Source: an uncultured Litoreibacter sp.
Lineage (GTDB): Bacteria > Pseudomonadota > Alphaproteobacteria > Rhodobacterales > Rhodobacteraceae
Reading direction: 5' to 3'
Assembly: GCA_947494435.1 (NCBI GenBank)
Contig: CANLUY010000004.1
Span: 8,106-72,105, forward strand
DNA: 64,000 nt
Shown: positions 32,057 to 63,003 of the stretch, piece by piece
Numbering within the stretch: the first letter of the stretch is position 1
Layout of the letters: each line of letters opens with the position of its first letter
Program-made: the position numbers and the translations under genes
The notes under the pieces: model-generated
The model's input: the letters and a program-made list of their open reading frames with translations, nothing else
What the model was told of the DNA's origin: nothing
Database searches by the model: none

Positions 32057-32057
32057 T

Positions 32058-45090: not shown

Positions 45091-46952
45091 CAGTGTGTCT
45101 GGCCGCGGTCGGTTTCACCGTCGACAAGATCTGCGCGGTCGCGTTCATATTCCCTGTCCGCGATTTCTTCGACAACGGTTCGCGCGGCTTCGCTGTTGGC
45201 CGTCGCCGCGTCTGATTGCAGATAGGCTTTTGCTGCATAGAGACGATCAAGGCGATCTTCGATCTGGGCTTTGAAAACATCCGCATCGCCGTTTCGCAAT
45301 GCAGCTACTTGCGCGTCATCCAACTCCCGCTCAACCGCGTCACGGTAATTCTGGCGTGCGTCGTCATCGGCGAAGGGAGACGAAAGATTGCCGTCCCTCT
45401 CGTGTGCAATGACACGTTGAACTTCCTCATTGGCATTGGGTCCGCCTGCGGTCTCCCACCCGACCTCTCGTGCCGTGACGCTGTTGCGATCAAACAAGTC
45501 CTCGCGGAACTCTTCGATCACCCCGTCTTCGCGCAAGACCTGCTCGCGCTCTAGAGTGATCCCCAACTGAACATGGACGCGATTCAGGGTTTCTCGCGCC
45601 TGCTCAAGATCCGCACGGCGTTCCAGATTGAGCCCATCCGTTTCAGCAACCCGCACCAGATCATCCGCGATCCACTGGCGCTCGAGCGCTGCATTTTGCG
45701 CACCTGCCTCCATTCGAGCCACGACGACACCAGTGCTGATCCCGGTGCCGCGCAGGGCCGTATCGACTTGTGCTCGTACATCCGGGTCTTGCAAGCGATC
45801 CAGTTGCTGGCGTTCGATGTTGTCCTCAGAATAGACCCCGCCTTCTGATGGTCGCTCTGTCAGGGTCACAGACCGCAGCCCCAGTGGCTGCATATGTGCC
45901 AGACGCGCCTGAATCTCGTTCAGGCTCTTCTCCAATTTCGGACGCTGAACCTCTGGTGTCTCTGCAATCATACCTTGGATCCGCGCAACCTGATCCGCAT
46001 AGCGGGTCTTTAGATCGTCAAAGCTCTGCTCTTCGGCCATATAGATGCCTCCTTCCAAGTTGAGCCGCCCGCCCTGCGCCAACATTTCGCCGGCGCGGAA
46101 CAACGCATCGGCAATATCATCCCGGTTCTCGCGCGACGCCTCGGCCGCCAGTGACTGGTAAATCTCACGGGTGTTTGCGATCTCGGCCAAGGCGCGCTCC
46201 AAGTCAGCACCGACGCGCTCTCGTTGCTCCGCCTCGCGCCCCTCGTTCTTGGCGGCATAAACCTCGCGCGTCCTCGGCGAGTAATGAACCACACCACGAT
46301 CAATGCGGCGGGTGGCTTCTAGACGGACACCGTATTTCTCGGCTTCCTCGACCATCGCCAGCCGAAAGTCGTCGTAGTTGAACCGATGGTTCCGCGCCAA
46401 ATAGAAGAATTCTCCCTCCTGCGACCGGCGGTTCAGGACGATATGGGCATGGGGGTGATCGCGGTCTTCATGAACAGCGATGATGTAGTCAAAGTGCCCG
46501 TCGTCATTCTGAAAAAACCGCTCAGCAACGTCTGAAGCGATGTCGCGTACATCCCCTCCATCCGTTCCAATCGGAAATGACATCAGCATATGTGTGGTCT
46601 GTCCGAGCTTGGGTTTGAACCCCGCGCTCCACCGTTTGGCAAAGCGCTCAGTCAGGTCTTTGATCTCGCGATTGTCCAGCTTGGATTTTCCATCCAGGAA
46701 CCCGCTGCTATCGACGATATGGGTAGACTTGGTGGTCAGATATCCAAGTTGGTTCGACAGTTCTGATTTGGAGTTTGTGCCTCCACCTCGGATCGCTTTG
46801 AAGACCGCCGCCCGGTGCCCGGCAGCGGCCCGAACAAGCTGCCGCTGCTTGGACACGTGCAGCCCTTGCATCGAGCCCCGGATGCGGCTCCAGCCATCCT
46901 GGAAGACTTCACCGGTAACCGCGTCGACGGCATCATTCAGCCGCATGCGCAA
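45090..46952 (-). CDS. virD2: VirD2-like MOBP relaxase
   Basis: AVFKAIRGGG..LGYL (motif I Tyr), THMLMSFP, AVHEDRDHPHAHIVLNR (HUH). Confidence 0.92.
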   Translation of the reverse strand: MRMRLNDAVDAVTGEVFQDGWSRIRGSMQGLHVSKQRQLVRAAAGHRAAVFKAIRGGGTNSKSELSNQLGYLTTKSTHIVDSSGFLDGKSKLDNREIKDLTERFAKRWSAGFKPKLGQTTHMLMSFPIGTDGGDVRDIASDVAERFFQNDDGHFDYIIAVHEDRDHPHAHIVLNRRSQEGEFFYLARNHRFNYDDFRLAMVEEAEKYGVRLEATRRIDRGVVHYSPRTREVYAAKNEGREAEQRERVGADLERALAEIANTREIYQSLAAEASRENRDDIADALFRAGEMLAQGGRLNLEGGIYMAEEQSFDDLKTRYADQVARIQGMIAETPEVQRPKLEKSLNEIQARLAHMQPLGLRSVTLTERPSEGGVYSEDNIERQQLDRLQDPDVRAQVDTALRGTGISTGVVVARMEAGAQNAALERQWIADDLVRVAETDGLNLERRADLEQARETLNRVHVQLGITLEREQVLREDGVIEEFREDLFDRNSVTAREVGWETAGGPNANEEVQRVIAHERDGNLSSPFADDDARQNYRDAVERELDDAQVAALRNGDADVFKAQIEDRLDRLYAAKAYLQSDAATANSEAARTVVEEIADREYERDRADLVDGETDRGQTH

Positions 46953-47900: not shown

Positions 47901-48128
47901 TCAGGCAGCGTTGCCATTGTGATCCGTAAGAGACATTGCATCTGTGACGCTGACGAACAGTGGAGTGATTAAGTACTCACCACCTGGCGCATTTGGCGGT
48001 GTGACAGCAACGATGGCGGAGACAGGTTCACCATCTAGAAAGCACGAGAACAACGCAAAGTTATCATGGTCTCCTGATGTCAGCGCCTCGAAGGCGCTGA
48101 CATGTATGGGGCGAATATTTGTACTCAT
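47901..48128 (-). CDS. Small hypothetical leading-region protein
   Basis: FEALTSGDHDNFALFSCFLDGEPVSAIVAV, ITPLFVSV; coupled to DUF2958 gene. Confidence 0.7.
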   Translation of the reverse strand: MSTNIRPIHVSAFEALTSGDHDNFALFSCFLDGEPVSAIVAVTPPNAPGGEYLITPLFVSVTDAMSLTDHNGNAA

Positions 48129-48484
48129 GCCAGGATCCTTCCGGCATCGCGGGCACGTTCGGCGTATACGCTGAGAGGGGCATCTGCTTGGAAGTGCAAG
48201 TCGCGTTCGATCGGCAAGCCAAGGCGACCGCGATGAGCCAAAAGTACACTGATCCGGACAGAGCCAAGTTCGGGAAATCCAAGGCCGAGATCACAAAGAC
48301 CAAACGCGATATCTGGATCATCAGGTTCGGTCTCAGAGAGGAGCCAGGTCGCGCCTCCGTCAGGTGTGAAGATTTTGACCACTGGCACGTGGTCAATGGT
48401 GTCTTCGCCGGCTTGGATGCGAGTGAAGTTTGCTTGGCCATTGGCGGCAAGTTGATCGAGAATTTTCTGTGGCAAGAGGTTCAT
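48125..48484 (-). CDS. DUF2958-domain protein
   Basis: PVVKIFTPDGGATWLLSE, AFGLCDLGLGFPELGSV, IERDLHF. Confidence 0.85.
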   Translation of the reverse strand: MNLLPQKILDQLAANGQANFTRIQAGEDTIDHVPVVKIFTPDGGATWLLSETEPDDPDIAFGLCDLGLGFPELGSVRISVLLAHRGRLGLPIERDLHFQADAPLSVYAERARDAGRILA

Positions 48485-48552
48485 ACGACTGTCCTTCAGG
48501 AATTTGGTTGTGAAGTTCGAGAGGGCCACCTGCCCTCCCGCGAGGTGGGCGT

Positions 48553-48753
48553 TCACTCGACGACCGGTGCATCGTCGGGGTCCGCCTTCGGCTCGAAGAG
48601 GACCAATTCGCCGTTGATCGGATTTGCAAAGAGCTGGATGGTCATGAAAGACTTGGCACCTTCGTTTTGAGGGAAGGCGACGCCAACTTTGTGAAAGCGC
48701 GTCTTGCCGTCTTTGCCGGTGTCGGGGGTTGTGACTGTGTAATATTTGGTCAT
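48553..48753 (-). CDS. 66-aa plasmid protein with acidic tail (possible ssDNA-binding)
   Basis: KDGKTRFHKVGVAFP, GELVLFEPKADPDD; RBS AAAGGA. Confidence 0.7.
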   Translation of the reverse strand: MTKYYTVTTPDTGKDGKTRFHKVGVAFPQNEGAKSFMTIQLFANPINGELVLFEPKADPDDAPVVE

Positions 48754-48794
48754 GTCGGTTTCCTTTCGTTTTCGATGCAAACGAGAAACCGGGA

Positions 48795-48889
48795 CCGGTC
48801 GGACTGGCTGTCACGCAGAACTTTGCTCCGCGCGGAATGGACGCGCAGCGGACAGGGGAAAGTTCTGCTTGAAGGGAGCCTGCGACCGG
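48795..48889. promoter_or_regulatory. Long imperfect hairpin, candidate single-stranded-DNA promoter (Frpo/ssi-like)
   Basis: CCGGTCG/CGACCGG outer and GCAGAACTTT/AAAGTTCTGC inner stems; homologous to 63417-63557. Confidence 0.6.
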
Positions 48890-49510: not shown

Positions 49511-50191
49511 CTATGCCGCTGAAGTGTTCAATTTCCCTTCAAAAAGCGCGTTGACCTTCTCAGCTATTGCTTTCCCAAGATCTCGATTGTTTTCCGCCGT
49601 GAAATGGATCCCATCGACTCCGTCAGTGCTGATGTGATCACCGGCGTTTAAGAAATGCACTTTCATGAAGTCCGCGAGATCGCCGTAGAGCTTGGCAAAC
49701 TCCTGAGATTTCTCATGGGCGCCTCCGAACAGTGACTGGAAATAGGCGTGCGGCATGGGCGTCAGCGGTGGCGGTGCTATGATCAGAACCTCAGGTGCCG
49801 GATAGGTCGTACCAACCCCACCGGCAGACCCGAGAACCTGACCCACGAGTTTTGACATGCCAGCAGCGATCTCGAACGGGGTGCGGTGGAAGTAGGCTTT
49901 TGTGTCGTTGGTTCCCAACATCACAATGACCAAATCCAAAGGCAAATGACTTGCCAATGCGGATGGCAAATAAGCGCTGCCGTCAAGTCTGGGATCTGTT
50001 GGATCGTCCAGCATAGTAGTTCGAGCGCTCAACCCCTCTTCAATGATGGTGTAGCCGTTGCCGAGTTCCGACTGGAGCACACCCGTCCAACGTACATCGG
50101 CGGGATAGCGCGTTGTTGGAACACCCTCTTCGACGGGGATCCAGCCCCAGGTCAGGGAGTCCCCGAAGCACATGATGCGTTTGTCTGACAT
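49511..50191 (-). CDS. SGNH hydrolase, MsAcT-like aryl esterase/acyltransferase
   Basis: CFGDSLTWGW, EEGLSARTT, MLGTND, SAGGVGTTYPAP, DGIH. Confidence 0.9.
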   Translation of the reverse strand: MSDKRIMCFGDSLTWGWIPVEEGVPTTRYPADVRWTGVLQSELGNGYTIIEEGLSARTTMLDDPTDPRLDGSAYLPSALASHLPLDLVIVMLGTNDTKAYFHRTPFEIAAGMSKLVGQVLGSAGGVGTTYPAPEVLIIAPPPLTPMPHAYFQSLFGGAHEKSQEFAKLYGDLADFMKVHFLNAGDHISTDGVDGIHFTAENNRDLGKAIAEKVNALFEGKLNTSAA

Positions 50192-50215
50192 GGAGCGTAC
50201 CTCTCTAAAACAGTT

Positions 50216-51154
50216 TTAAGATTTGCGGGTGTTGAGACCGTAGAAGACCGCGGCCAAAAGGATGATCAGGCCACGCGCGATCTGTTTTCCGGGTTCGGGG
50301 ACGCCAAAACTTGTCATCACAACAAAGAGCAGTGCAAAGCACATGACGCCGAAAAACGGCCCCCAGACACCGCCATCTCCTCGTCCAAAGACGACGCCGC
50401 CCAGGATCGTTGCAGCAACAGCATCGATCGGCATTTCGAGGCCAAGACGTAGACTGCCCACAGCAACCGACGCGGATTGAACGATCGCCGCGACACCTGC
50501 GAAGAAACCAGCCAGAACGTGTGCGACAAGCACCGTGCGCTCGACCGGGACCCCGCTGAAATGGGAGGCGGTTGGGTTTTCGCCCACTGCCATGACAAAA
50601 CGACCGTAGACAAAGCGTGACAGGAAGACCGCCATCGTCATTGTCAGAACGGTCCAAACAATAACGGGCAGCGGGATCGGCCCCAGCTTCATTTTGTATA
50701 TGTCATTCATGAGTTCCGGCATGTTGCCCGGTGGTTTTCCGCTGGCGAGGAACTGGACAAAGCCAGTGATAATGACTGTCACGGCCAATGTTGCAATGAC
50801 GGCTGAGACACGACGCATTGCAACGAGATAACCGTTAAACAACCCCACTGCGCAGCCGATCGCTAAAGAAAGGATGATGATCAGGGTAAGTGGCATGTCA
50901 CCCAGTAGGCCCGATGCAATCAGATAGTTGATGAGCAGCAACACCCCCGCACCCGACAGATCAATGGAGCGGACACGCATAACAAGCATTTGCCCAAGAA
51001 CGAGGATGCCCAAGGGCGCAACTTGTCGGATAAAGATACCCATCACGTTGAGGTTCATCAGCTGCGGCTTCGTAAGCCAAAGCGTCGCCAATAGAGCCGC
51101 GAAGACGAAGTAAGCAGGTGGTATGCGGCTCGCTGATTTAAGAAACGAGGCCAT
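50216..51154 (-). CDS. Sugar ABC transporter permease (RbsC-like, CUT2)
   Basis: IDLSG, AVGENPTASHFSGV, DAVAATILGG. Confidence 0.9.
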   Translation of the reverse strand: MASFLKSASRIPPAYFVFAALLATLWLTKPQLMNLNVMGIFIRQVAPLGILVLGQMLVMRVRSIDLSGAGVLLLINYLIASGLLGDMPLTLIIILSLAIGCAVGLFNGYLVAMRRVSAVIATLAVTVIITGFVQFLASGKPPGNMPELMNDIYKMKLGPIPLPVIVWTVLTMTMAVFLSRFVYGRFVMAVGENPTASHFSGVPVERTVLVAHVLAGFFAGVAAIVQSASVAVGSLRLGLEMPIDAVAATILGGVVFGRGDGGVWGPFFGVMCFALLFVVMTSFGVPEPGKQIARGLIILLAAVFYGLNTRKS

Positions 51155-51156
51155 CC

Positions 51157-52143
51157 TTACAGCCCCATCTTCTTGCGCGATTGCATGGCCACGACCAATA
51201 GAAGGATGACGCCCTTGATCGCCCCTTGGAGGAATGCGGACAGGCCGGCGAGGTTCATGCCATTGGCCAAGAGCGCCATAAGAACAGCGCCAAGAATGCT
51301 ACCATGCAACCCGCCAACGCCACCGGACAATTGGGTGCCACCGATTGCGACGGCTGTGATGGAATCTAATGCAAACTGCGAGCCCACACCGGGATCTCCA
51401 GATGCGATCCTGCCAGCAATGAAGGTCCCTGCTAGCGCCGCAAAAAGGGCGCTGAAAACATAAGCGATTATGATACTGCGTCCGTCTTTTAGGCCAAAGT
51501 TGTGCGCTGTATCGTCTTGGCCCGATGCAACCCCACCCCCTATCGCGAAGAGATACAGTCCAAAGCGGGATCCATGTAGGATCTTCCAGCCGAGTGCCAC
51601 GACAAAGATCGCCCAAAAGACGGGAGCTGGAACCCCAAAGACCGAACCCGTCACTAGACTGACTACGAGATCAGGGACTGATCCTCCTGCCACTGGACGC
51701 AAAATTTGGGCGATGCCCAATACAATGAACTGCATCGAAAGGGTCGCAATAATTGGGTGGACGTTGAGCCTGACAATCGCCACGCCATTCACAATACCAA
51801 TGAGAACGGCCGCCAAGAACACGAGAGGGATTAACACGAGGGGCGATCCGTCAAGCGCCAGGATGGCGGTAGTCAAGCTCATGACGGAGCCAACCGATAA
51901 ATCCATACCGGCGAGTACGATCACGATCATTTGCCCAATCGCCACGATGATCAAAGGCATTGCCTGCGCAAGGAGATTGTTGGCATTCTGTGGTGTCGCG
52001 AAGTCATCCGTTGTCGCGAGGAGGATCAACACCGTCGTTACGATCAGGAGAAGCGCTGCCCACCAGTTACCTTGTCGTGAGTTCTTGCCAAGCCAACGAT
52101 TTGGTTTGGTGCCCGGGAGATTGTGTGTTTTGGAAGTGCTCAT
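51157..52143 (-). CDS. Sugar ABC transporter permease (RbsC-like, CUT2)
   Basis: GMDLSVGS, DSITAVAIGGTQLSGGVG. Confidence 0.9.
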   Translation of the reverse strand: MSTSKTHNLPGTKPNRWLGKNSRQGNWWAALLLIVTTVLILLATTDDFATPQNANNLLAQAMPLIIVAIGQMIVIVLAGMDLSVGSVMSLTTAILALDGSPLVLIPLVFLAAVLIGIVNGVAIVRLNVHPIIATLSMQFIVLGIAQILRPVAGGSVPDLVVSLVTGSVFGVPAPVFWAIFVVALGWKILHGSRFGLYLFAIGGGVASGQDDTAHNFGLKDGRSIIIAYVFSALFAALAGTFIAGRIASGDPGVGSQFALDSITAVAIGGTQLSGGVGGLHGSILGAVLMALLANGMNLAGLSAFLQGAIKGVILLLVVAMQSRKKMGL

Positions 52144-53633
52144 GTCTTCAGTGCCGCATTGAGGATGGCGTGTTCTGTTGCTTCGCAACCCAGCATCTTG
52201 GCGACGATCTTCCTGTCATGAACAACGAGAATGTTGTCACACAGACCGATCAGTTCGACGGTTTCGCGGGATAGCACGATGATGGCTTTACCTTGCTCTG
52301 CAAGGTCTCGAAGCAGTCGATAAATCTCGGCCTTGGCACCAATGTCGACGCCGCGCGTTGGCTCTTCGATAATGAGAATATCCATATCCGATGCGAGGTA
52401 ACGACCGAGGAGAACCTTTTGTTGGTTACCTCCTGACAGGGCACCGACCGGCATATTGGGACTTTCTGCTTTGACCCGCATCTCTTTCATGATTCGAATT
52501 ACAGTCTCCCGAAGGCGGATCAGCGGCTTAAATCCCGGGCGGGCCGACTGAAGAGAGATACCGATGTTTTCGGAGATTGGCGCCCCCAACAGAAGGCCTT
52601 CCTCTTTTCGATCTTCCGGCACGAACCCGACACGTTGGCGCTGCATTGAACGAACGCCGACCTGGCGCGCGAGGGGCAGCTTCACCGGAGTATTATTGAC
52701 AGAAAGTGCTCCGTGGGTTCCTGGAACCTGACCAATAAATGATCGAACAATCTCGCTTTGGCCTTGCCCTTCCAGACCAGCGATGCCCAATATCTCACCT
52801 GCGTGGAGGTCAAAGCTGAGAGGTTCTGTGCCCGCTGGCAGAACCAAATCCCTGCAAGACAAGACGACATGACCCAGATTGGTTGCGCGGCACGGGAACA
52901 AATCTTCAAGATCACGACCAACCATGAGAGCGATAAGCGCGTCCGGTGTAAGTGTATTAAGCGGTTGAGTTGAGACGTGTCGACCGTCTTTCATGACCGT
53001 CACGTCATCACACATGGCGAAAATCTCATCCATACGATGAGAGATGTAGATGATCGCTTTGCCTGCAGCTTTGAGTTTACGGATTTGCGCATTCAGAACC
53101 TCGACATCGGCCGCGTTCAGCGCTGCGGTCGGTTCATCGAGAATGAAAACTTGAGCGTCTGCCTTGATACCATGGGCGATCTCTACGAATTGACGTTCAG
53201 CAATGCTGAGTTCTGAAACGAGCGTATTGGGATCAATTGTCATTCCCAGCTCTGCCAAGGCATCGCTGGTACGTGCTGTCATTGCGGCACGGACTGGGAT
53301 GCCGAATTGTCCCACGATCTCTTTGCCAAGAAACATATTTTCCGCGATTGTCAGGTTGGGCAGAAGGGACAGCTCTTGAAAGACTGTCGAAATCCCTGCC
53401 GCGAGTGCTTGGCGTGGGTCCGCGAATGTGACGACCTGCCCCGCAATCCTGATTTCGCCGCTGTCTGGTCGATGCACGCCAGCGAGCATCTTCATCAACG
53501 TCGATTTGCCTGCGCCATTCTCGCCCATCAAGGCGTGGACACGGCCGGGCGAGATTTCAAAGGACACGTCATCGACAGCAAGTGTCGACCCGAATGCTTT
53601 GGTTACGCCCTTCATGGATACTGCTGGCAGCAT
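52140..53633 (-). CDS. Sugar ABC transporter double-domain ATP-binding protein (RbsA-like)
   Basis: GENGAGKST, ILDEPT, LSGGNQQK, EEPTRGVDIGAK. Confidence 0.95.
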   Translation of the reverse strand: MLPAVSMKGVTKAFGSTLAVDDVSFEISPGRVHALMGENGAGKSTLMKMLAGVHRPDSGEIRIAGQVVTFADPRQALAAGISTVFQELSLLPNLTIAENMFLGKEIVGQFGIPVRAAMTARTSDALAELGMTIDPNTLVSELSIAERQFVEIAHGIKADAQVFILDEPTAALNAADVEVLNAQIRKLKAAGKAIIYISHRMDEIFAMCDDVTVMKDGRHVSTQPLNTLTPDALIALMVGRDLEDLFPCRATNLGHVVLSCRDLVLPAGTEPLSFDLHAGEILGIAGLEGQGQSEIVRSFIGQVPGTHGALSVNNTPVKLPLARQVGVRSMQRQRVGFVPEDRKEEGLLLGAPISENIGISLQSARPGFKPLIRLRETVIRIMKEMRVKAESPNMPVGALSGGNQQKVLLGRYLASDMDILIIEEPTRGVDIGAKAEIYRLLRDLAEQGKAIIVLSRETVELIGLCDNILVVHDRKIVAKMLGCEATEHAILNAALKT

Positions 53634-53708
53634 GAAATTGAACCTTGGTGAAAGAAAGGGCGCTCCCGCGGAGTAAACTCCGTGAGAGCAAGTCTGACAG
53701 GGAGGGTG

Positions 53709-54773
53709 TCAGTTACCGTAGAGTTCCTGGAGGGTCTCTTCCGGCAATTCAGTTGGCCACCAGACGTTGGCGGAGAGATCATCGCGATAATACTCGGCGG
53801 CCTTTTCCGCGTTCCAGCCCTCGGGTTCGTAGATGTAGTGCTTGTGCAAAGCCTCACCTTCCAAAAGAGCGACAGCTGCGCGCACCCCTGCAGCAGCTTG
53901 TGAAGGGCTGTATTCCGCGACAATTGACGGGTACCCCAGCTCAAGCCATTGCCCAAAGAAGCCGTTGTTTCCCTCACCTGTGATTGGCGGGATGTCGGCT
54001 CCGAACTCTGTCAGCACATCAACGCAAGCACGGGTCATGTCCGCACCAGACGACCAGATTGCGTCGACCTGTGGGTCATTGAGATAGAAGGTTTCGCACA
54101 GGCTCTTGCCCAGGTCATAGACCCAGTTGCCGTAGTCCTCCTGAGTGATATCGATGTTGGTCCCTTCCAAGGCCTGCATCAACCCATTGTAGCGGTTGAT
54201 GTCTTCTGGATGGGACGGCAATCCACGAAGTACCCAGATTTTGCCCTCGCCACCAAGTTGCTCGACAAGAAAGTCGCCCATGACGCGGCCAAAGTTCTCC
54301 GCACCGCCTTGAATATCGACAGTGAAGTTCTGGTTTTCAGTGCGGCCAGTGTGAACGACAACAGGAATGCCAGCATCAATCGCCATTTGAATGCCTGCAT
54401 CTGCCGAAGTGGGTGTCACGGGCATGACAATCAGAACGTCAGGATCCTGAGCAATCAGATCTTCAATGTCGGCGACCTGCTTTGCTTGATCGAAGTTCGC
54501 GTCGAGCATGATGAAGTTTTCAATGCGGGCATCGCCATCTGCAATACCTTTCGCTTCGTGCGCCGTCTGGACCGTCCAAGTGTTCGCGTTTACGCCAAAG
54601 TGGCTCATTGCGATTGTCCAAGGCGCCTCTGTCTGAAAGGCGCCGGCCTCAACAATAGAATTCCCTTCCGGGCGCGGTTCGACTCCGTCCATCAGGTTTA
54701 CGTCTTGCGCGAGCGCAGACGATGCGAGCAGTGCTGCGCACACGGACAGTGTTGTCAGGCGAATGGTGGTCAT
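53709..54773 (-). CDS. Sugar ABC transporter periplasmic binding protein
   Basis: Signal peptide after RBS GGAGG; KQVADIEDLIAQDPDVLI, AGIPVV. Confidence 0.9.
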   Translation of the reverse strand: MTTIRLTTLSVCAALLASSALAQDVNLMDGVEPRPEGNSIVEAGAFQTEAPWTIAMSHFGVNANTWTVQTAHEAKGIADGDARIENFIMLDANFDQAKQVADIEDLIAQDPDVLIVMPVTPTSADAGIQMAIDAGIPVVVHTGRTENQNFTVDIQGGAENFGRVMGDFLVEQLGGEGKIWVLRGLPSHPEDINRYNGLMQALEGTNIDITQEDYGNWVYDLGKSLCETFYLNDPQVDAIWSSGADMTRACVDVLTEFGADIPPITGEGNNGFFGQWLELGYPSIVAEYSPSQAAAGVRAAVALLEGEALHKHYIYEPEGWNAEKAAEYYRDDLSANVWWPTELPEETLQELYGN

Positions 54774-54923
54774 TTTTGGGTCTCCTCCCCTATTGCGATC
54801 ATGCCTTTCCCTGCCCCAAACCGCTGTTTTGAGCGGCTGGGTCTCTGCTTGCGAAAAGCAGGTTTTGGAAAGGCGATGAGTCTCCTCCTGCGCTCGTTTC
54901 AAACAGTCTGACGGTGCCGTGTC

Positions 54924-55004
54924 AATACTTATTCAGTATGAATGAATAAGTATTTGATTGCGCACTCGTGCTTCCCCTGACACATTCATCTTAACTGAAT
55001 AAGT
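54924..55004. promoter_or_regulatory. Two ROK-type operators
   Basis: AATACTTATTCA-N7-TGAATAAGTATT (54924-54954) and ATTCA-N7-TGAATAAGT (54984-55004) between divergent operons. Confidence 0.7.
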
Positions 55005-55049
55005 CGGAGCGCATTCGAAAAGCCCGCGAAAAATGCGAGAAAAAATGAC

Positions 55050-55694
55050 ATGAAAACAGTGCTTTGCTTCGGAGACTCCAATACGCACGGACAGATACCC
55101 GGCGGCACGCCGCTCGATCGCTTTGGCCACACTGAACGTTGGCCCGGAGTATTTGGTCAGGTCTTGGGAAAAGAGTGGCACGTGATTGAAGAAGGTCTTA
55201 GCGGACGCACAACCGTTTATGATGACCCCATCGAAGGGGACATAAAGAACGGGAAGACTTACTTGCGGCCCTGCCTGATGAGCCATGCACCGCTTGATCT
55301 TATCATTTTGATGCTTGGAACGAACGACCTGAAAGCGCGCTTTAATCAACCTGCGTCGGAGATTGCGATGGGTATTGGATGTCTCATCCACGACATACGA
55401 GAGCTTTGTCCTGGCCCCGGTGGCCACTGCCCTGAAATACTTGTGGTGGCCCCACCACCTATGCTTGACGATATTGGGGAATGGGAAGGCATATTCTCCG
55501 GTGCCCAACCTAAAAGCCATCAACTGGCTCACGCCTTCGAGGTTATTGCAGATTCACTGGAGGTTCATTTCTTCGATGCCGGCACGGTGATCCCATCAGA
55601 TCCAGCGGACGGCTTTCATCTTAGCCTTGAGGCCCACGCGGTTCTGGGACGAGCACTCGCACAAGAAGTCCTCAATATAGGGTGGTCTGACTAA
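55050..55694 (+). CDS. Second SGNH/GDSL hydrolase
   Basis: CFGDSNTHG, EEGLSGRTT, MLGTND, DGFH. Confidence 0.9.
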   Translation: MKTVLCFGDSNTHGQIPGGTPLDRFGHTERWPGVFGQVLGKEWHVIEEGLSGRTTVYDDPIEGDIKNGKTYLRPCLMSHAPLDLIILMLGTNDLKARFNQPASEIAMGIGCLIHDIRELCPGPGGHCPEILVVAPPPMLDDIGEWEGIFSGAQPKSHQLAHAFEVIADSLEVHFFDAGTVIPSDPADGFHLSLEAHAVLGRALAQEVLNIGWSD

Positions 55695-56800
55695 TGCCCG
55701 ACATGCGCTTTGCCCCGCCCAACCCAATCCGTATTGCCGATCGCGCCAGCGGGATGAACGCTGTGAGCGTGCGCAGCTACAACGAGCGCCTCGTCTTGTC
55801 ATTGTTGCTTCAAAATGAGGGGCTTTCTCGCATGGAGATCGGGACGCGGACGGGCCTTTCGGCGCAGACCGTTTCAGTGATTGTCAGATCGCTAGAACAG
55901 GAAGGGTTGGTTTCCAAGGGCGAGGCAGTCAAGGGACGCATGGGGCCGCCGACCATCCCACTCTCGCTTAATCCGGAGGGGGCCTATTCTGTTGGGATTA
56001 GTCTGGGGCATCTGCACACCGACGTTGTGATGATCGATTTCGTAGGACAAGTGAAGTTTTATACGTCATTGCCGATCCCAAGCGACAGTGAGACTACAAA
56101 TCATTCCAAGCTCGTTGAAACGGTTAGGCAGGCCTTGGATGCCCTGCCCGACAAACAGGCGGGCCGTCTGGCCGGTATCGGGATCGCCATGCCCGAAGAT
56201 CAGGACGAACTGGCACTTGGGCCGATTGGAATGGCTGACCGTTTCGAAGCCCTCGGGAAAGAAATCGAAGATGCGATGGGCATCGAGGTCTACGTTCAGA
56301 ACGATATTACTGCCGCCGCTGCGGGTGAAAGCATGTTTGGAGCGGCGAAAACACTTGATGACTACATTTTCTTTTACATCGGCGCGCGCTTACACCACAG
56401 ACTGGTCTTAAACCATCAGATTTTCCAAAGCAGGGTCCAGGAAAGTAAACCTGTTGGCCTCCTGAACCTCGAAGAGAGGATTTCAAAGACTACCCAATCC
56501 CCACAAGCGCTTTGGCAACGAGGGCAGGATTGGCCTGATTATGGTTCAGAAAAGGATCGATGGGTTGCCGATTGCGTGAATTCCTTAAGGGAGTCGCTCG
56601 ATGCCGCTTCACAGTTTTTACCTGTCAGCACGGTCATCGTCTCGTCTTATGCGCCGTCTGATGTTTGTATAGAGATTGCGGACAAACTCTCGAGTTGCAC
56701 CCAAGATGTCGAAGTTGCTGCAGGCCACCTCCAACTCTCCCCTAAAGCGCTCGGCGCTGCAAGTTTGCCATTTAGCTCAAAGTTCACCGTCGAAAGGTGA
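55694..56800 (+). CDS. ROK-family transcriptional regulator
   Basis: HTH LSRMEIGTRTGLSAQTVSVIV, GRMGPP, VQNDITAAAAGE. Confidence 0.9.
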   Translation: MPDMRFAPPNPIRIADRASGMNAVSVRSYNERLVLSLLLQNEGLSRMEIGTRTGLSAQTVSVIVRSLEQEGLVSKGEAVKGRMGPPTIPLSLNPEGAYSVGISLGHLHTDVVMIDFVGQVKFYTSLPIPSDSETTNHSKLVETVRQALDALPDKQAGRLAGIGIAMPEDQDELALGPIGMADRFEALGKEIEDAMGIEVYVQNDITAAAAGESMFGAAKTLDDYIFFYIGARLHHRLVLNHQIFQSRVQESKPVGLLNLEERISKTTQSPQALWQRGQDWPDYGSEKDRWVADCVNSLRESLDAASQFLPVSTVIVSSYAPSDVCIEIADKLSSCTQDVEVAAGHLQLSPKALGAASLPFSSKFTVER

Positions 56801-56940: not shown

Positions 56941-58173
56941 CTACAAGCCGAGCGCTGTCTCCATTCTCTCATGTTCAAATGCGGGTGCGCACCGCCTCAA
57001 TGCAGCGCCGGTTATGCCATGCTGGCGGAGTGTTTCGCCCCAGATTGTTGCAATCGTGTTGGCCATGTTTTTCGCCATATCCCTGGCATCGGCATCTGAG
57101 ATGTCAAAGAATGGCGCGGCATCAATCACCGCTTCCACGGAGGGTTCAAAGCCGTGAACGTCACTTATCCCGGTTTCGAGAGTAGGTTGCCTGCGTGGCT
57201 GCGGATTGACGTCAAACATCGGTGACAGACGCCAGCGGTTGTCACGGACATAGAGAAGACCATGATTTTTGAGATGGTCATCAGTGTTTGTGATCAGCAC
57301 GGTGAACAACAGGCGTTGCCACAGTTCCCGAATGTCCTTTTCCGGCAAGACGGACATTTGCCGCAAAGCATCCACGATGTCGGTATAGTAGCCGTGGGCG
57401 GACCCTTTCTTGCCCAAGGCCGTCCGGGCCGACATGTAGGGCAAGCGGCCACCCTCACGACGATCAAAGCGCTTGATGAGGCCAACTGGATGCTGGCTGG
57501 CGGCCAGTTCGAGCCGCGCTTCCGGTGTCCGAATACCTACCGCGCTGGCCATTGCAAGTGTGGCGATTTCCAACCGCTCTACTGGCCATGTGTCATCAAT
57601 TGAGGTGAACTTTGCGATCCAGAGGTTCTCACCATCCTCGACATTGGCTTTTGGACGCGCACCACCAAGGGAACCTGCCGCGCCGACAAGATCACGCGCT
57701 TCGGCTTCCGCGCCTTCCGGATCCCGTTCATACCGCACTGCGATCGCGCGCAGTTCTTCGATGTTGGCCAAGCGTGGCACAGGAGGTTGCTCCGGATGGA
57801 ACAACTCTCCTTTCTCGTTAAAGAACCGCAATGCCCCGTGGCGGGCCTTGTCATCGGCCGCAACCAGATAGTCGAATTCCGTGACCCCCTCGCCATGCAC
57901 GCGACGAATAAGCTTACGTCCCCAGCTATCAGGCGATGTATCCGTAAAGGGCCCCGCCAAGACATCTCGACGTCGGCTTTCGCGCCCCTCTGCAGAGAAA
58001 TGAAATGGCGCACGGCTGCGCGGCATGTCAGGGGCAAGATCAAATCCTATCGGGTCTTCAAGCCATCTCTCGTCATAGATGAAAGTGGAATGTGACCGCC
58101 GACCATCGGTTTCAAAAATTAAGCGCCCAACAGGGATACAGGCATTCCCAAGGACCACAGAAGCTTCAGACAT
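56941..58173 (-). CDS. hipA: HipA-family kinase toxin
   Basis: HipA N-terminal couple domain (PDSWGRKLI), GSLGGARPKA, NTDDHLKNH, LSPMFD. Confidence 0.9.
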   Translation of the reverse strand: MSEASVVLGNACIPVGRLIFETDGRRSHSTFIYDERWLEDPIGFDLAPDMPRSRAPFHFSAEGRESRRRDVLAGPFTDTSPDSWGRKLIRRVHGEGVTEFDYLVAADDKARHGALRFFNEKGELFHPEQPPVPRLANIEELRAIAVRYERDPEGAEAEARDLVGAAGSLGGARPKANVEDGENLWIAKFTSIDDTWPVERLEIATLAMASAVGIRTPEARLELAASQHPVGLIKRFDRREGGRLPYMSARTALGKKGSAHGYYTDIVDALRQMSVLPEKDIRELWQRLLFTVLITNTDDHLKNHGLLYVRDNRWRLSPMFDVNPQPRRQPTLETGISDVHGFEPSVEAVIDAAPFFDISDADARDMAKNMANTIATIWGETLRQHGITGAALRRCAPAFEHERMETALGL

Positions 58174-58577
58174 CAGAATGCTGTCCCTTCATCGTCATCA
58201 AGCCCGGTTGACCCTTTTGAAGAGCCTCTCAGGTGATCGGGAATGGTCTCTGTTCCCTTACTAGTCCGCATGGATGCCGATGAGCCGCGCTGTCGGATGC
58301 GCTCCGGGAGTTTCTCACGGTCCAGTCCGATGCCAGTCGAATCTGAGGCTGGATCGGCGATCTCAGCCAAACGGTCCAGCATGCCCAAAGCCAGAAGCGC
58401 CATGGCAAAGGTCTCAAGCCGGACACCACCATCACCCCGCTCAAGCTTCGCAAGGGTCTTATCGCTGACGCCAATTCGGCTACAGAAATCCGCAACCGAC
58501 ATGCGGCGCCTTTTGCGCGCGGTTTGGATATCGCGACCAAGCAGCGACAAAGCGGATTTAACTTGCAATGAGCTCAC
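58173..58577 (-). CDS. XRE/HTH antitoxin (HipB-like)
   Basis: ARKRRRMSVADFCSRIGVSDKTLAKLERGD; stop overlaps hipA ATG; probable GTG start after GGAGAG. Confidence 0.85.
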   Translation of the reverse strand: MSSLQVKSALSLLGRDIQTARKRRRMSVADFCSRIGVSDKTLAKLERGDGGVRLETFAMALLALGMLDRLAEIADPASDSTGIGLDREKLPERIRQRGSSASMRTSKGTETIPDHLRGSSKGSTGLDDDEGTAF

Positions 58578-58596
58578 AACACTCTCCAAGGTTACA

Positions 58597-58766
58597 TCGG
58601 ATATTTGTCCGGTTTAAAATCATTAGACCGGACTTTTCTCCGACATAAAGCCCAGCCTTCCAAAAAGCAAGGTTTTACACGCTAACACACTCAAACCTCC
58701 GACTTAACGCACATAAGCAGAGTTATTATCCGACTTAGAAACTCCATCTTACTAATACCCGACAGA
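58597..58766. repeat. Two YCGGA-N6-TCCGR palindromes and a ~30-bp-periodic CCG-core repeat series
   Basis: Palindromes 58597-58612 and 58628-58643; TCCG(A/G)(C/T)(A/T)TA at 58608, 58639, 58698, 58729, weaker at 58758. Confidence 0.55.
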
Positions 58767-58904
58767 CATAAGCCTCATTCCCTGCCCAATGATCTACCGC
58801 ATAGCCCTCGAACAGGTTATCGACTAGCACCGCCCCAAATTCACGAAATCCTGCAGATTCACTCTTCAGCACAACTGCGAACATCGACTGGCCGACCACC
58901 GGTA

Positions 58905-60185
58905 TCATGCCGCAACTCCGCTCAATCGACCAAAGAAACTGCGCTCGAGATGCAACTCCCCTGCCCCGGCCTTCTCGACCATACCGCGCAGATATCCACC
59001 TGGTGAGGTGACTTCACCCGTGCTGTGTTTCTCAAAAACCAACACCAAAGCGGCCGTTGCCACCTGTTTGCCCAGCATTTCCTGCGCAGTGTTCCACGCA
59101 TGCTCAGAAATACCAATCATAGGCCTGAGTTGCCCAGCAACCCGGTGCAAATCGCCCCAATCCTTCAGGAATCCGCCCATACTCCGCGCCCAGGACGCAA
59201 ATTCAGGACAAGCTTGCATGATCGTTGGCAGGTCAACTGCTGTCCGCTTCTTGCGAACCTCAACAACCCAGTCTTCTAACGCGCTATCAAAACGCTCCTC
59301 CGGTGGCGCATTGGGCACCACGTCCGCCGCTTCCTCTTTTTCTGAGGAATTACTAATTACAGAACTGAGTTGTTTTGTAACTAGTATATGAGGGTCGGAA
59401 TTGACCTCCCTGGGGTTCATTTGTTGAGTCTTCTGTGAAACTTGTTCGACAGTCACAGCGGTGTTTTCCACAACTTCTTCCGGCTGGACTGCTTTGAGGT
59501 AAGCAGTTTCCACACGCCCCTGAAGCTCTTTGAACCATGTCAGCAGGCCCATAAGCCGGTCCGATCCTTCGTTTCGGCGTGGCAGACGGCCAAGTAGGTC
59601 CTCGAACAGACCCGTAAACTGCACCCACGGGCCGCTGAGCGCCCCGCTGACGGCTGCTTCGATCCGTGCGCGGATCATGCGCCGTGCGACCGTGATTTGC
59701 CGCTTCAGTCGCTGGCACAGCTCTCGTTCCGCCTGCAACTGGGCGTGCAACTGCTCAAATTCGTCCACACGGGCCGACAATGGTGACAGGTCGAAGCCAT
59801 AGGCCTCGATGATAACGCCCTCAGCGTCTCTCTTGCCCCATCGCTTCCCATTGGGGCTGTCTTTGAAGGCAATGGCCCCTGCCTCCGCTAAACGCCGTGC
59901 ATGGCGCTTCAGAGCGGAAAGCGAGAAACCTGTCTGTTCCATCAGATAGGCGTTGGACGCCCAAACGATGGGCCGTCTGCCCTCTTCCCAGTCTTGAGCC
60001 TGTGTGAAGGCTCCCAGCGTGTCCAGAAGCATCATGTCGCCAGCCTTGAGACCGATATGTGCTCCAACGCGCTTTACCGCAACAAATGCTCTTGTTTTGG
60101 GTACAGCTACCCGTTCACCGGCTTGGGCAAGTTGCTCTGCAACCCCAAGACCCGGTGTCGGCTTGCGCCAACCTGTGTTCTTCAT
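58905..60185 (-). CDS. repC: RepC replication initiator of a RepABC replicon
   Basis: DSPNGKRWGKR, AYGFDLSPL, ACPEF, SPGGYLRGM..KA..GEL; AT-rich internal segment ~59340-59400 (candidate oriV). Confidence 0.95.
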   Translation of the reverse strand: MKNTGWRKPTPGLGVAEQLAQAGERVAVPKTRAFVAVKRVGAHIGLKAGDMMLLDTLGAFTQAQDWEEGRRPIVWASNAYLMEQTGFSLSALKRHARRLAEAGAIAFKDSPNGKRWGKRDAEGVIIEAYGFDLSPLSARVDEFEQLHAQLQAERELCQRLKRQITVARRMIRARIEAAVSGALSGPWVQFTGLFEDLLGRLPRRNEGSDRLMGLLTWFKELQGRVETAYLKAVQPEEVVENTAVTVEQVSQKTQQMNPREVNSDPHILVTKQLSSVISNSSEKEEAADVVPNAPPEERFDSALEDWVVEVRKKRTAVDLPTIMQACPEFASWARSMGGFLKDWGDLHRVAGQLRPMIGISEHAWNTAQEMLGKQVATAALVLVFEKHSTGEVTSPGGYLRGMVEKAGAGELHLERSFFGRLSGVAA

Positions 60186-60252
60186 GAGTTTTTCTTCGCC
60201 TCCTCTGCTTGACTGGAGACAAAAGAAATCCGTTCACCGAATCGGTGTTTCG

Positions 60253-60339
60253 TTGACAACGATTTGCGTGGAGTGCTACCTATCAGTTGCAACACAGATA
60301 GAATGGCTCTCTTACCGCAAGGTGGAGGGCTTTTCTTTT
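60253..60339 (+). ncRNA. repABC counter-transcribed RNA (ctRNA) with its promoter
   Basis: TTGACA at 60253 in repB-repC gap, antisense to repC mRNA; terminator hairpin 60306-60330 plus TTTTCTTTT; RNA roughly 60288-60339. Confidence 0.8.
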
Positions 60340-60419
60340 GCCGTTAAATCACTTCATACATGATCCTATTTCTTGCCTCATTTGGGTTCGAAGAGCACCG
60401 TCTTCGCGGCTCCTGCCTC

Positions 60420-62809: not shown

Positions 62810-62968
62810 AACACCGTCCTCATTCGATTCTCTTGTGGAACCGATTCCGCAATTTAATAGCACGGTTTTGAAGGTTTTGTATAGATATTGTACGCCTACC
62901 AGATATCTAACGCACAATATGGACCACACTAATAGGAAAAGCGAACAACGTTCGGCAACGGCCTCAGA

Positions 62969-62990: not shown

Positions 62991-63003
62991 CCAAGATGTA
63001 AGT

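What the first reader, a model, noticed from the sequence alone, without database searches (positions are those of the whole stretch)
49511..56800. MsAcT-like acyltransferase embedded in a sugar-import operon with a second SGNH enzyme
From memory of the M. smegmatis MsAcT sequence, ORF 49511 matches it closely (KRIMCFGDSLTWGWIPVEEG, DDPTDPRL.G, LGTNDTKAYF, identical SAGGVGTTYPAP loop, TDGVDGIHFT). It retains the Phe residues of the hydrophobic acceptor pocket (YFQSLF, DFMK). MsAcT is a valued aqueous acyl-transfer/perhydrolase catalyst whose natural role I believe is unclear. Here it ends a CUT2 importer operon, divergent from a second SGNH hydrolase and ROK repressor, pointing to acylated sugars as substrates.
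Basis: partly seen in the sequence, partly recalled or inferred. Interest (0 to 1): 0.75.

Follow-up and report, generated by a model that had tools for sequence, protein, structure and literature searches.

The report
MsAcT/Est24-type esterase in ester-import operon
The gene is a close relative (70% identical) of the industrial acyl-transfer enzyme MsAcT. It is the last gene of a conserved seven-gene uptake cluster, and variants of that cluster in other bacteria suggest the natural substrate is an acetylated small polyol, probably acetylated glycerol, rather than an acetylated sugar.

Summary
ORF 49511-50191 (-) encodes a 226-aa SGNH enzyme that aligns without gaps to MsAcT (2Q0Q; 149/213 identical, E 9e-103) and to S. 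meliloti Est24 (5HOE; 151/214). The catalytic residues are intact, and the pocket residues I recalled are conserved except W149Y.

It ends an operon for a CUT2-type ABC importer (binding protein, fused ATPase, two permeases). A second SGNH paralogue and a ROK-like regulator are transcribed divergently. All seven genes recur together in 40 of 80 related loci from three orders. Est24 is the same gene in the same cluster on pSymA, so this is a new member of a known enzyme family.

New here:
- A conserved palindrome, probably the operator, lies in the divergent promoter.
- The two paralogues have systematically different pockets, hydrophobic in AcT and polar in SGNH2.
- In about six variant loci the operon is joined or flanked by glycerol kinase, glycerol-3-phosphate dehydrogenase or acetate-CoA ligase genes.

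Nothing is shown biochemically, and co-transcription is only weakly supported by RNA data from a relative.

The parts
49511..50191 (-). AcT: MsAcT/Est24-type SGNH esterase/acyltransferase, 226 aa. Cytoplasmic: the catalytic Ser is residue 11, which leaves no room for a signal peptide.
   Evidence: 70% identical to 2Q0Q and 5HOE without gaps. Triad S11/D192/H195 and oxyanion residues A55/N94 present. GAGAGG ribosome-binding site 8 nt before the ATG.
50216..51154 (-). Permease 2 of the CUT2 ABC importer (BPD_transp_2), 312 aa.
   Evidence: Pfam. NCBIfam hits to AraH/RbsC/MglC-type permeases, all below equivalog cut-offs. Its stop lies 24 nt before the AcT start.
51157..52143 (-). Permease 1 of the CUT2 ABC importer (BPD_transp_2), 328 aa from ATG 52143.
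   Evidence: Its ATG overlaps the ATPase stop (ATGA). A 2-nt gap separates it from permease 2.
52140..53633 (-). Fused two-domain ABC ATPase, 497 aa (AraG/XylG/RbsA type).
   Evidence: Pfam finds two ABC_tran stretches. NCBIfam: AraG 497 bits, XylG 459, RbsA 442, all below equivalog cut-offs.
53709..54773 (-). Periplasmic solute-binding protein (Peripla_BP_4), 354 aa, with signal peptide MTTIRLTTLSVCAALLASSALA|QD.
   Evidence: AlphaFold model pLDDT 91.5. Foldseek places it in the ribose/polyol/furanose CUT2 binding-protein fold, TM 0.70-0.77, identity 14-24%. The family is tight: all 120 listed homologues are at least 64% identical.
54774..55049 (.). Divergent promoter region between the binding-protein gene and SGNH2.
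   Evidence: No sigma-70 consensus hit stands out above the shuffled controls.
54924..54954 (.). Putative operator: perfect inverted repeat AATACTTATTCA-N7-TGAATAAGTATT.
   Evidence: TGAATAAGT occurs 3 times in the 64-kb window, all within this intergenic region, against 0.2 expected. A TTATTCA-N5-9-TGAATAA motif scores at least 11/14 in the same intergenic position in 43 of 44 loci, against 12 of 836 control windows.
54996..55004 (+). Third copy of the half-site TGAATAAGT.
55050..55694 (+). SGNH2: paralogous SGNH esterase, 214 aa, cytoplasmic, with a polar pocket variant.
   Evidence: 42% identical to AcT. Hits 5HOE and 2Q0Q at E about 1e-50. Family-wide residues N12, H14 (39/43), Q16, G55, R99, S174, F194, with F150 deleted.
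55694..56800 (+). Divergent ROK-like transcriptional regulator, 368 aa: N-terminal winged helix plus a partial ROK domain.
   Evidence: Pfam ROK 38 bits, MarR_2/HTH_24 at residues 29-77. Mlc/NagC-like below cut-off. No CxCGxxGC zinc motif in any of 42 orthologues and no kinase DxGxT motif. Its start overlaps the SGNH2 stop (TAATG).

Best explanation
The seven genes form a self-contained, plasmid-borne module for taking up a small O-acetylated polyol and removing its acetyl groups. The best candidate substrate is acetylated glycerol (mono- or di-acetin-like esters).

Proposed steps:
1. The periplasmic binding protein captures the ester.
2. The CUT2 ABC transporter imports it.
3. In the cytoplasm two non-redundant SGNH esterases strip the acyl groups. 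SGNH2 has a polar pocket. AcT has the MsAcT/Est24-type hydrophobic, aromatic pocket.
4. The products (glycerol or another polyol, plus acetate) enter housekeeping pathways.
5. The ROK-like protein binds the conserved palindrome between the two divergent transcription units and is presumably released by the substrate or a product.

Shown here: the sequence identities, the gene order, conservation of the cluster and of the palindrome, the pocket differences, and the glp/acs linkage in variant loci.

Inferred: the direction of transport, co-transcription, regulator-operator binding, hydrolysis as the in vivo reaction, and the identity of the substrate.
For: 1. Enzyme identity: E 9e-103 and 70% ungapped identity to MsAcT and Est24, with catalytic and pocket residues conserved.
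2. Est24 (5HOE) is encoded by the last gene of the same seven-gene cluster on S. meliloti pSymA. It hydrolyses acetyl esters in vitro, including glucose pentaacetate and cellulose acetate (PMC9487903).
3. Operon architecture: ATGA and TAATG start/stop overlaps, 2-nt and 24-nt gaps, and no terminator-like site in any gap.
4. The complete seven-gene arrangement occurs in 40 of 80 loci from Rhodobacterales, Hyphomicrobiales and Marinomonas. Partial copies lie at contig ends. It also occurs in Variovorax, Oceanibium, Fulvimarina and a further metagenome-derived genome, L086.
5. No other gene family recurs with the core.
6. The palindrome is conserved in 43 of 44 intergenic regions.
7. The two paralogues form separate clades with invariant but different pocket residues. 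Some loci add a third SGNH gene or an alpha/beta-hydrolase.
8. Glycerol and acetate genes lie in or beside the operon:
- Devosia: AcT-SGNH3-GlpD-GlpK-Acs-FBA.
- Marivivens: AcT-SGNH3-GlpD-Acs-GlpK. In both loci these genes are above their NCBIfam equivalog cut-offs.
- Tateyamaria: AcT-GlpD, 693 bits against a cut-off of 360.
- Variovorax: perm-ABH-GlpK-GlpD-like-AcT, with GlpK at 722 bits against 590.
- L087: GlpK-like gene, transporter, AcT, GlpD-like gene.
- L080: Acs adjacent to AcT.
9. In the census of same-strand genes after AcT, these families are the only recurring ones that fit an ester-catabolism theme.
10. The closest structural neighbours of the binding protein include polyol binders (4RS3, 4RSM, 5HKO).
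11. RNA-library contigs from a Roseibium relative about 92% identical bridge the gene junctions, including permease 2-AcT.
Against: - No biochemical or genetic data exist for any member of the cluster apart from in vitro esterase assays of Est24 on artificial substrates.
- The glp/acs linkage is seen in only about 6 of about 55 cluster-bearing loci. The window has no glpK, glpD or acs.
- In two of those loci the GlpD-like or GlpK-like genes score below equivalog cut-offs, so they could act on another polyol phosphate.
- Glycerol and acetate genes are common, so some adjacency could be coincidental.
- Acetylated glycerol is not a well-documented abundant natural nutrient, and I found no paper on its bacterial catabolism.
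- The binding protein's fold does not discriminate between ligands.
- The RNA evidence is from assembled contigs of runs that also hold 65-97 kb contigs, so DNA carry-over is possible, and the contigs carry no strand information.
- MsAcT is reported not to accept more polar substrates such as amino acids (PMC7383625). That sits awkwardly with a very polar natural substrate.
Confidence: 0.5

Rival explanations
1. One reading: the module imports O-acetylated (acylated) monosaccharides, for example fragments of acetylated plant or algal polysaccharides. The two esterases deacetylate them in the cytoplasm.
For: - The transporter parts resemble arabinose/ribose/xylose/galactofuranose CUT2 systems.
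- The regulator is ROK/NagC/Mlc-like.
- Est24 hydrolyses glucose pentaacetate and cellulose acetate, and its authors call it a carbohydrate acetylesterase (PMC9487903).
- The host range, plant- and alga-associated bacteria, fits.
Against: - No sugar kinase, isomerase or glycosidase is ever attached to the cluster.
- The genes that are attached are for glycerol and acetate.
- No NCBIfam sugar-specific equivalog cut-off is reached by any transporter component.
- The regulator lacks the canonical ROK zinc and sugar-kinase motifs.
- The Est24 substrates tested were artificial.
Confidence: 0.25
2. AcT works in the cell as a true acyltransferase rather than a hydrolase. It moves acetyl groups between imported esters and another alcohol acceptor (transacylation or disproportionation), and SGNH2 supplies the hydrolytic step.
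For: - The MsAcT-type hydrophobic pocket (L12, W14, W16, F150, F154, F174, I194) is invariant in 48 in-cluster orthologues. SGNH2 has polar replacements.
- MsAcT prefers acyl transfer over hydrolysis in water, which has been ascribed to this hydrophobic, oligomer-built environment (PMC7383625).
- Keeping two paralogues side by side suggests they have different chemistry.
Against: - No acceptor-supplying or product-using gene is linked to the cluster.
- Est24 behaves as an esterase in vitro.
- The attached glp/acs genes fit complete hydrolysis to glycerol plus acetate.
- Aromatic pockets are also usual for binding sugars and polyols.
Confidence: 0.1
3. The transporter imports an unesterified sugar or polyol. 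The two esterases have a role unrelated to the transported solute, for example detoxifying adventitiously acetylated metabolites or xenobiotic esters, so the linkage says little about substrate.
For: - Transporter specificity is unknown.
- The mycobacterial and Streptomyces homologues, including MsAcT, lack the transporter context altogether. The enzyme can therefore work without it.
Against: - Esterases flank the transporter on both sides in 40 complete clusters across three orders, with start/stop overlaps and a shared operator region.
- Variants add still more esterases.
- Such tight, long-lived linkage is hard to explain without a shared substrate.
Confidence: 0.08

Closest known systems
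MsAcT, Mycobacterium smegmatis acyltransferase/aryl esterase (PDB 2Q0Q, 2Q0S)
   Same: 70% identity over 213 residues without gaps, so all loop insertions are retained. Same triad, oxyanion residues and aromatic pocket residues, except W149Y.
   Different: MsAcT and the other mycobacterial homologues form a sister clade. They lack the transporter/SGNH2/ROK context and sit next to a Beta_elim_lyase (threonine-aldolase-like) gene instead. Octamer formation and the acyl-transfer/perhydrolysis preference are untested for the window protein.
Est24, Sinorhizobium meliloti 'octameric carbohydrate acetylesterase' (PDB 5HOE)
   Same: 70.6% identity. It is the positional orthologue: the 5HOE chain sequence is contained exactly in the last gene of the same seven-gene cluster on pSymA.
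   Different: Different host order (Hyphomicrobiales against a probable Rhodobacterales plasmid). Est24 was characterised only on artificial esters, and the review I could read calls its biological role speculative. The primary Est24 papers are not held, so I could not check whether they discuss the gene cluster.
Intracellular SGNH acetyl-xylo-oligosaccharide esterase Axe2 of Geobacillus stearothermophilus (recalled from my own knowledge, not checked here)
   Same: As I recall it, an octameric cytoplasmic SGNH esterase encoded with an ABC importer, which deacetylates imported acetylated carbohydrate fragments. That is the same logic of importing the ester and deacylating it inside the cell.
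   Different: Not a close sequence relative: it does not appear among the PDB hits at E <= 0.001. As I recall, its system imports oligosaccharides and is embedded in a large xylan regulon with glycosidases. The module here is CUT2 (monosaccharide/polyol type) and has no glycosidase.
CUT2 polyol and pentose ABC importers (for example M. smegmatis polyol binding proteins 4RS3/4RSM/5HKO, E. coli RbsB)
   Same: Same component architecture and the same binding-protein fold, TM 0.70-0.77.
   Different: Identity is only 14-24%. The binding protein has N- and C-terminal extensions and its own invariant aromatic and charged residues. No equivalog cut-off is reached.
NagC/Mlc-type ROK repressors
   Same: N-terminal winged helix plus a ROK-like domain, divergent arrangement from the regulated transporter, and an AT-rich palindromic site in the shared promoter.
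   Different: Only the N-terminal half of the ROK profile matches. The CxCGxxGC zinc motif is absent in all 42 orthologues.

Membership tests
MsAcT/Est24 subfamily of SGNH (GDSL) hydrolases | SGNH fold with blocks GDS / G / GxND / DxxH | tested here: met
   Pfam Lipase_GDSL_2 65.6 bits and Lipase_GDSL 40.9 bits, both above cut-off. Motifs CFGDS, GLSARTT, GTNDTK and DGIHF are present.
MsAcT/Est24 subfamily of SGNH (GDSL) hydrolases | Catalytic triad Ser11-Asp192-His195 and oxyanion residues Ala55/Asn94 (MsAcT numbering) | tested here: met
   All are conserved in the window protein and invariant or nearly so in 48 in-cluster orthologues.
MsAcT/Est24 subfamily of SGNH (GDSL) hydrolases | Full-length collinearity with the solved members, including the subfamily-specific loop insertions | tested here: met
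   Ungapped alignments of 213-214 residues at 70% identity to 2Q0Q and 5HOE.
MsAcT/Est24 subfamily of SGNH (GDSL) hydrolases | Hydrophobic/aromatic pocket residues (L12, W14, W16, F150, F154, F174, I194). The residue list is recalled from the MsAcT literature; I could not verify it in the held papers. | tested here: met
   All are present. W149 is Tyr, as in 25 of 48 in-cluster orthologues. Searches for the residue list in papers failed.
MsAcT/Est24 subfamily of SGNH (GDSL) hydrolases | Homo-octameric quaternary structure that buries the active site | not testable with these tools
   Only single chains can be modelled, and no coordinates were available to map interface residues.
MsAcT/Est24 subfamily of SGNH (GDSL) hydrolases | Acyl transfer or perhydrolysis favoured over hydrolysis in water | not testable with these tools
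   Needs enzyme assays. Est24 is reported only as an esterase in the review read.
CUT2 (carbohydrate uptake transporter-2) ABC importers | Peripla_BP_4-type binding protein with an export signal | tested here: met
   Pfam 138.7 bits. Signal peptide read from the sequence. Fold match to CUT2 binding proteins.
CUT2 (carbohydrate uptake transporter-2) ABC importers | Single ATPase polypeptide with two fused ABC domains (about 500 aa) | tested here: met
   497 aa with two ABC_tran stretches. Full-length matches to AraG/XylG/RbsA models.
CUT2 (carbohydrate uptake transporter-2) ABC importers | Membrane components of the BPD_transp_2 family | tested here: met
   Two permeases, 102 and 92.5 bits.
CUT2 (carbohydrate uptake transporter-2) ABC importers | Identified sugar or polyol ligand | tested here: inconclusive
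   No NCBIfam equivalog cut-off is reached. PDB relatives are at most 24% identical and bind ribose, polyols, arabinose, galactofuranose or inositol.
ROK-family transcriptional regulators (NagC/Mlc/XylR type) | N-terminal winged-helix DNA-binding domain | tested here: met
   MarR_2, HTH_24 and MarR hits at residues 29-77.
ROK-family transcriptional regulators (NagC/Mlc/XylR type) | Complete ROK domain with the zinc-binding CxCGxxGC(H) motif | tested here: not met
   The Pfam ROK match covers only profile positions 2-132 of 294. The motif is absent in the window protein and in 0 of 42 orthologues. I therefore call it 'ROK-like'.
ROK-family transcriptional regulators (NagC/Mlc/XylR type) | Palindromic operator in the promoter of the regulated genes | tested here: inconclusive
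   A conserved palindrome is present, but binding has not been shown.

The most novel reading that the evidence does not exclude
The conserved SBP-CUT2-SGNH-SGNH-ROK module is a dedicated pathway, not described in the literature I could search, for scavenging acetylated glycerol or related short-chain polyol esters. If so, it reveals the long-unclear natural function of the MsAcT/Est24 enzyme family: the hydrophobic octameric pocket evolved for acetyl-glycerol chemistry. That chemistry may include genuine acetyl transfer between glycerol hydroxyls in vivo, with the polar paralogue SGNH2 completing hydrolysis.
Probability: 0.3. Interest if true: 0.65.

Novelty: new member of a known kind. Interest (0 to 1): 0.45.

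Why it matters
MsAcT is a widely used biocatalyst for ester, amide and peracid synthesis in water. Neither it nor its crystallised relative Est24 has a known physiological substrate in the literature I could search.

This window adds one more orthologue, which is ordinary in itself. The comparative analysis it prompted yields a concrete, cheap-to-test hypothesis for the family's native role. It also supplies the experimental handles:
- a binding protein to screen for ligands;
- a regulator and its candidate operator;
- two paralogues with contrasting pockets, which could guide engineering of the transfer/hydrolysis ratio;
- natural variant operons that name the products (glycerol and acetate).

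If confirmed, it would also define a new nutrient class, short-chain polyol esters, taken up by plant- and alga-associated alpha-proteobacteria, often on plasmids.

Tried and rejected
- Near-identical DNA in PLSDB: none. The exact protein is not on record.
- No sequencing run holds the window. The S. meliloti locus from the plasmid collection could not be used for read searches.
- The S. meliloti transportome paper and the SmAcE1 paper are not held.
- Locus-tag searches were swamped by the polymer 'SMA2000'. 'SMa1993' occurs in no held paper. SMa2000 appears only as a generic binding protein in a PhaR table, and I could not verify that it belongs to this cluster.
- Searches for MsAcT pocket residue numbers and for its natural substrate gave nothing usable.
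- The BcsX/acylated-cellulose lead was rejected: BcsX is only 26% identical to MsAcT over part of its length.
- Sigma-70 promoter and terminator scans were not above shuffled background.
- Rfam and tRNA scans were empty.
- The fold search with the binding-protein model gave only generic CUT2 neighbours and no ligand inference. Source names for binding-protein homologues are generic, such as 'ribose transport system'.
- The Oceanibium FGGY kinase proved XylB-like, not GlpK-like, so I did not count it as glycerol evidence.
- L087's organism could not be identified.
- I did not model AcT itself, because 70% ungapped identity to two crystal structures makes the fold certain.

Full report
OBSERVATION

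The ORF at 49511-50191 on the minus strand encodes a 226-residue protein. Searched against all PDB chain sequences, it matches MsAcT (2Q0Q/2Q0S, 'aryl esterase') at E 8.8e-103 and 5HOE at E 1.1e-102. Both alignments cover 213-214 residues without a single gap. Identity is 149/213 (70.0%) to MsAcT and 151/214 (70.6%) to 5HOE.

The triad S11/D192/H195, the oxyanion residues A55/N94 and the aromatic residues W16, F150, F154 and F174 are kept; W149 is Tyr. The list of pocket residues is my recollection of the MsAcT literature. The held papers confirm only the general idea of a hydrophobic, oligomer-built pocket (PMC7383625).

GENE CLUSTER IN THE WINDOW

Pfam and NCBIfam give this order on the minus strand:
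- a Peripla_BP_4 binding protein;
- a 497-aa ATPase with two ABC domains;
- two BPD_transp_2 permeases;
- AcT.

On the plus strand, divergently, lie a second SGNH protein (SGNH2, 42% identical to AcT) and a protein with a winged helix and a partial ROK domain.

The junctions are tight:
- a 75-nt gap after the binding-protein gene;
- an ATGA stop/start overlap between the ATPase and permease 1;
- 2 nt between the permeases;
- 24 nt, with a GAGAGG ribosome-binding site, before AcT;
- a TAATG overlap between SGNH2 and the regulator.

No terminator-like site falls in any gap, and the scan as a whole is not above shuffled background.

The binding protein has a clear signal peptide. Both SGNH proteins begin a few residues before the catalytic GDS motif and therefore cannot be exported.

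All transporter parts resemble arabinose/ribose/xylose/galactofuranose CUT2 systems, but none reaches an equivalog cut-off. The regulator lacks the ROK zinc motif in all 42 orthologues, so I call it ROK-like.

IS THE LINKAGE REAL?

A scan of one genome per species returned 80 loci encoding AcT relatives. Laying the seven window proteins on them shows the following:
- The complete arrangement ROK<-SGNH2 | SBP-ATPase-perm-perm-AcT occurs in 40 loci.
- Truncated copies lie at contig ends in several more.
- The hosts are Rhodobacterales, many families of Hyphomicrobiales, and Marinomonas.

Through binding-protein homologues the cluster also appears in Variovorax, Oceanibium, Fulvimarina and a further metagenome-derived genome (L086).

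The mycobacterial and Streptomyces homologues, the clade that contains MsAcT, have none of this context. Thirteen mycobacterial loci have a Beta_elim_lyase gene immediately upstream instead.

A neighbour-joining tree, made without bootstraps, places the actinobacterial proteins as sister to the proteobacterial, mostly in-cluster clade. SGNH2 forms a separate paralogue clade.

All-against-all clustering of flanking ORFs finds no further family that travels with the seven genes. The core is a self-contained module.

KNOWN RELATIVES

On S. meliloti 1021 pSymA the same seven genes are present. The 5HOE chain sequence is contained exactly in the last one. Est24, published as an 'octameric carbohydrate acetylesterase', is therefore the positional orthologue of the window enzyme.

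A 2022 review states that Est24, Sm23 and SmAcE1 were tested only on artificial substrates (naphthyl acetates, glucose pentaacetate, cellulose acetate) and that their biological activity remains speculative (PMC9487903). PGAP annotation of the cluster is generic. I found no paper that addresses the cluster or a natural substrate of MsAcT. The primary Est24 papers are not held.

REGULATORY SITE

The 276-bp divergent intergenic region contains a perfect inverted repeat, AATACTTATTCA-N7-TGAATAAGTATT, at 54924-54954, and a third half-site at 54996-55004. TGAATAAGT occurs three times in the 64-kb window, all within this intergenic region, against 0.2 expected.

A TTATTCA-N5-9-TGAATAA motif scores at least 11/14 in the equivalent intergenic region of 43 of 44 loci, and 14/14 in 15 of them. 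Only 12 of 836 control windows reach 11. This is most simply the operator of the ROK-like regulator, but binding has not been shown.

TWO DIFFERENT ESTERASES

Using MsAcT numbering:
- The 48 in-cluster AcT orthologues have L12, W14, W16, A55 (47/48), T96 (46/48), F150, F154, F174 and I194, invariant unless a count is given.
- The 43 SGNH2 orthologues have N12, H14 (39/43), Q16, G55, L96, R99, S174, F194 and lack F150.
- The catalytic residues are invariant in both.

The paralogues are thus both under strong constraint and are not redundant.

WHAT IS THE SUBSTRATE?

An AlphaFold model of the binding protein is confident (pLDDT 91.5). Its PDB neighbours are generic CUT2 binders of ribose, polyols, arabinose, galactofuranose and inositol at 14-24% identity, which is not diagnostic.

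The informative evidence is in variant operons:
- Variovorax: the operon reads SBP-ATPase-perm-perm-alpha/beta-hydrolase-GlpK-GlpD-like-AcT. GlpK scores 721.6 bits against an equivalog cut-off of 590. The GlpD-like gene scores 294 against 360.
- Devosia: AcT is followed on the same strand by a third SGNH gene, GlpD (780 against 360), GlpK (671 against 590), acetate-CoA ligase (1004 against 725) and a class II aldolase.
- Marivivens: AcT is followed by SGNH3, GlpD (718), acetate-CoA ligase (1037) and GlpK (692).
- Tateyamaria, a close relative of the window's cluster: GlpD (693) directly follows AcT.
- L087: a GlpK-like kinase precedes the transporter and a GlpD-like gene follows the AcT orthologue. 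Both are below cut-off.
- L080: an acetate-CoA ligase abuts AcT.
- Oceanibium: the cluster lies beside a glycerophosphodiester phosphodiesterase/Ugp-like system.

I also ran an unbiased census of same-strand ORFs after AcT in 49 loci. Twenty-five loci have no such ORF, like the window. Among the rest, the recurring families that fit an ester-catabolism theme are DAO+DAO_C (3), FGGY (2), the Acs type (2), alpha/beta-hydrolase (2) and GDSL (2). A few unrelated families also occur twice (NMT1_2, ABC_tran, FMN_red, FCD, Flavodoxin_2).

Multiple esterases followed by the enzymes that consume glycerol and acetate suggest an acetyl ester of glycerol, or of a glycerol-like polyol, as the imported compound. 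No sugar kinase, isomerase or glycosidase is ever attached.

The limits of this inference:
- The linkage is seen in roughly 6 of about 55 cluster-bearing loci.
- The window itself has no glp or acs genes.
- Some of the linked genes are below cut-off.
- I found no literature on bacterial acetin catabolism.

CO-TRANSCRIPTION

No run holds the window sequence. For Roseibium aggregatum (L039), RNA-labelled runs hold a cluster about 92% identical. In runs X9 and X5, short contigs bridge the permease 2-AcT junction; X9 bridges every other junction as well, and X5 the ATPase-permease 1 and permease 1-permease 2 junctions. These runs also hold 65-97 kb contigs, so DNA carry-over cannot be excluded, and contigs carry no strand information. 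I count this as weak support only.

SURROUNDINGS

The window is part of a conjugative repABC plasmid:
- RepC at 58905-60185, a probable RepB at 60420-61457 and a ParA-like RepA at 61454-63061;
- HipA and a helix-turn-helix partner at 56941-58589;
- a T4SS coupling protein and a MobA/VirD2 relaxase at 43066-46952;
- VirB4/TrbI/TrbL-type genes at 26907-36819.

The closest AcT relatives (86-90%) are in Rhodobacterales genomes, some of them chromosomal. The same cluster lies on plasmids in Sinorhizobium, Roseibium, Shinella and Pararhizobium. The module is therefore mobile.

VERDICT

The enzyme is a new member (70% identical) of a well-studied family, and its orthologue from the same cluster has already been crystallised. 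On that ground the finding is not novel as an enzyme.

The proposed substrate class should shift from acylated sugars towards acetylated glycerol or small polyols.

The value lies in a specific, testable hypothesis for the native role of the MsAcT/Est24 family. I give moderate interest (0.45) and about 0.5 confidence in the mechanism as stated.

Noticed in passing
window 26907-36819, 43066-46952, 56941-63061: The window is part of a conjugative repABC plasmid. It carries VirB4/SLT/TrbI/TrbL-type T4SS genes, a T4SS coupling protein plus a MobA/VirD2 relaxase, a HipA toxin with a helix-turn-helix partner, and RepC with a probable RepB and a ParA-like RepA. GC content varies from 0.50 to 0.63 along the window, and the T4SS block is the richest, which suggests a mosaic.
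   Followed up: partly
window 16567-24223: A second, unrelated sugar-uptake locus. It has a CUT1-type binding protein (SBP_bac_1/8, 16567-17829) and a canonical full-length ROK protein (20817-22058, Pfam ROK 151.6 bits). This contrasts with the degenerate ROK-like regulator of the cluster studied.
   Followed up: no
L038 6932-7990 and 12 other Mycobacterium/Mycolicibacterium loci: In mycobacteria the MsAcT-clade gene is immediately preceded by a conserved 352-aa Beta_elim_lyase (threonine-aldolase-like) gene instead of a transporter. This is a different and unexplained context for MsAcT itself.
   Followed up: partly
L046 2306-2931 (Mesorhizobium loti UFLA 01-765): The SGNH2 gene matches as two pieces whose coordinates put them in different reading frames, while the rest of the cluster is intact. 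This is a possible frameshift pseudogene or a sequencing error.
   Followed up: no
L052 1738-2956; L044 3188-7959: Structural variants of the cluster. L052 has a tandem duplication of SGNH2. Marivivens (L044) has a second binding protein/permease/ATPase/permease set inserted between permease 2 and AcT.
   Followed up: partly
L087 (GCA_020630065.1), 8066-17134: A variant without the ROK-like regulator and SGNH2: a GlpK-like kinase, the transporter, an AcT orthologue (62% identical) and a GlpD-like dehydrogenase. Its neighbours are a HisKA_3/GerE two-component system and DUF3152. The organism could not be identified; GC is 53%.
   Followed up: partly
window 48125-48814: A DUF2958 protein lies between the relaxase module and the cluster. 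Its function is unknown.
   Followed up: no
window 53709-54773 and alignments A1/A2: The binding-protein family is unusually conserved: 60-95% identity across three orders, often higher than the enzymes it travels with. It has many invariant Trp/Tyr/His/Arg/Asp residues and N- and C-terminal extensions relative to RbsB. This suggests one specific ligand.
   Followed up: partly
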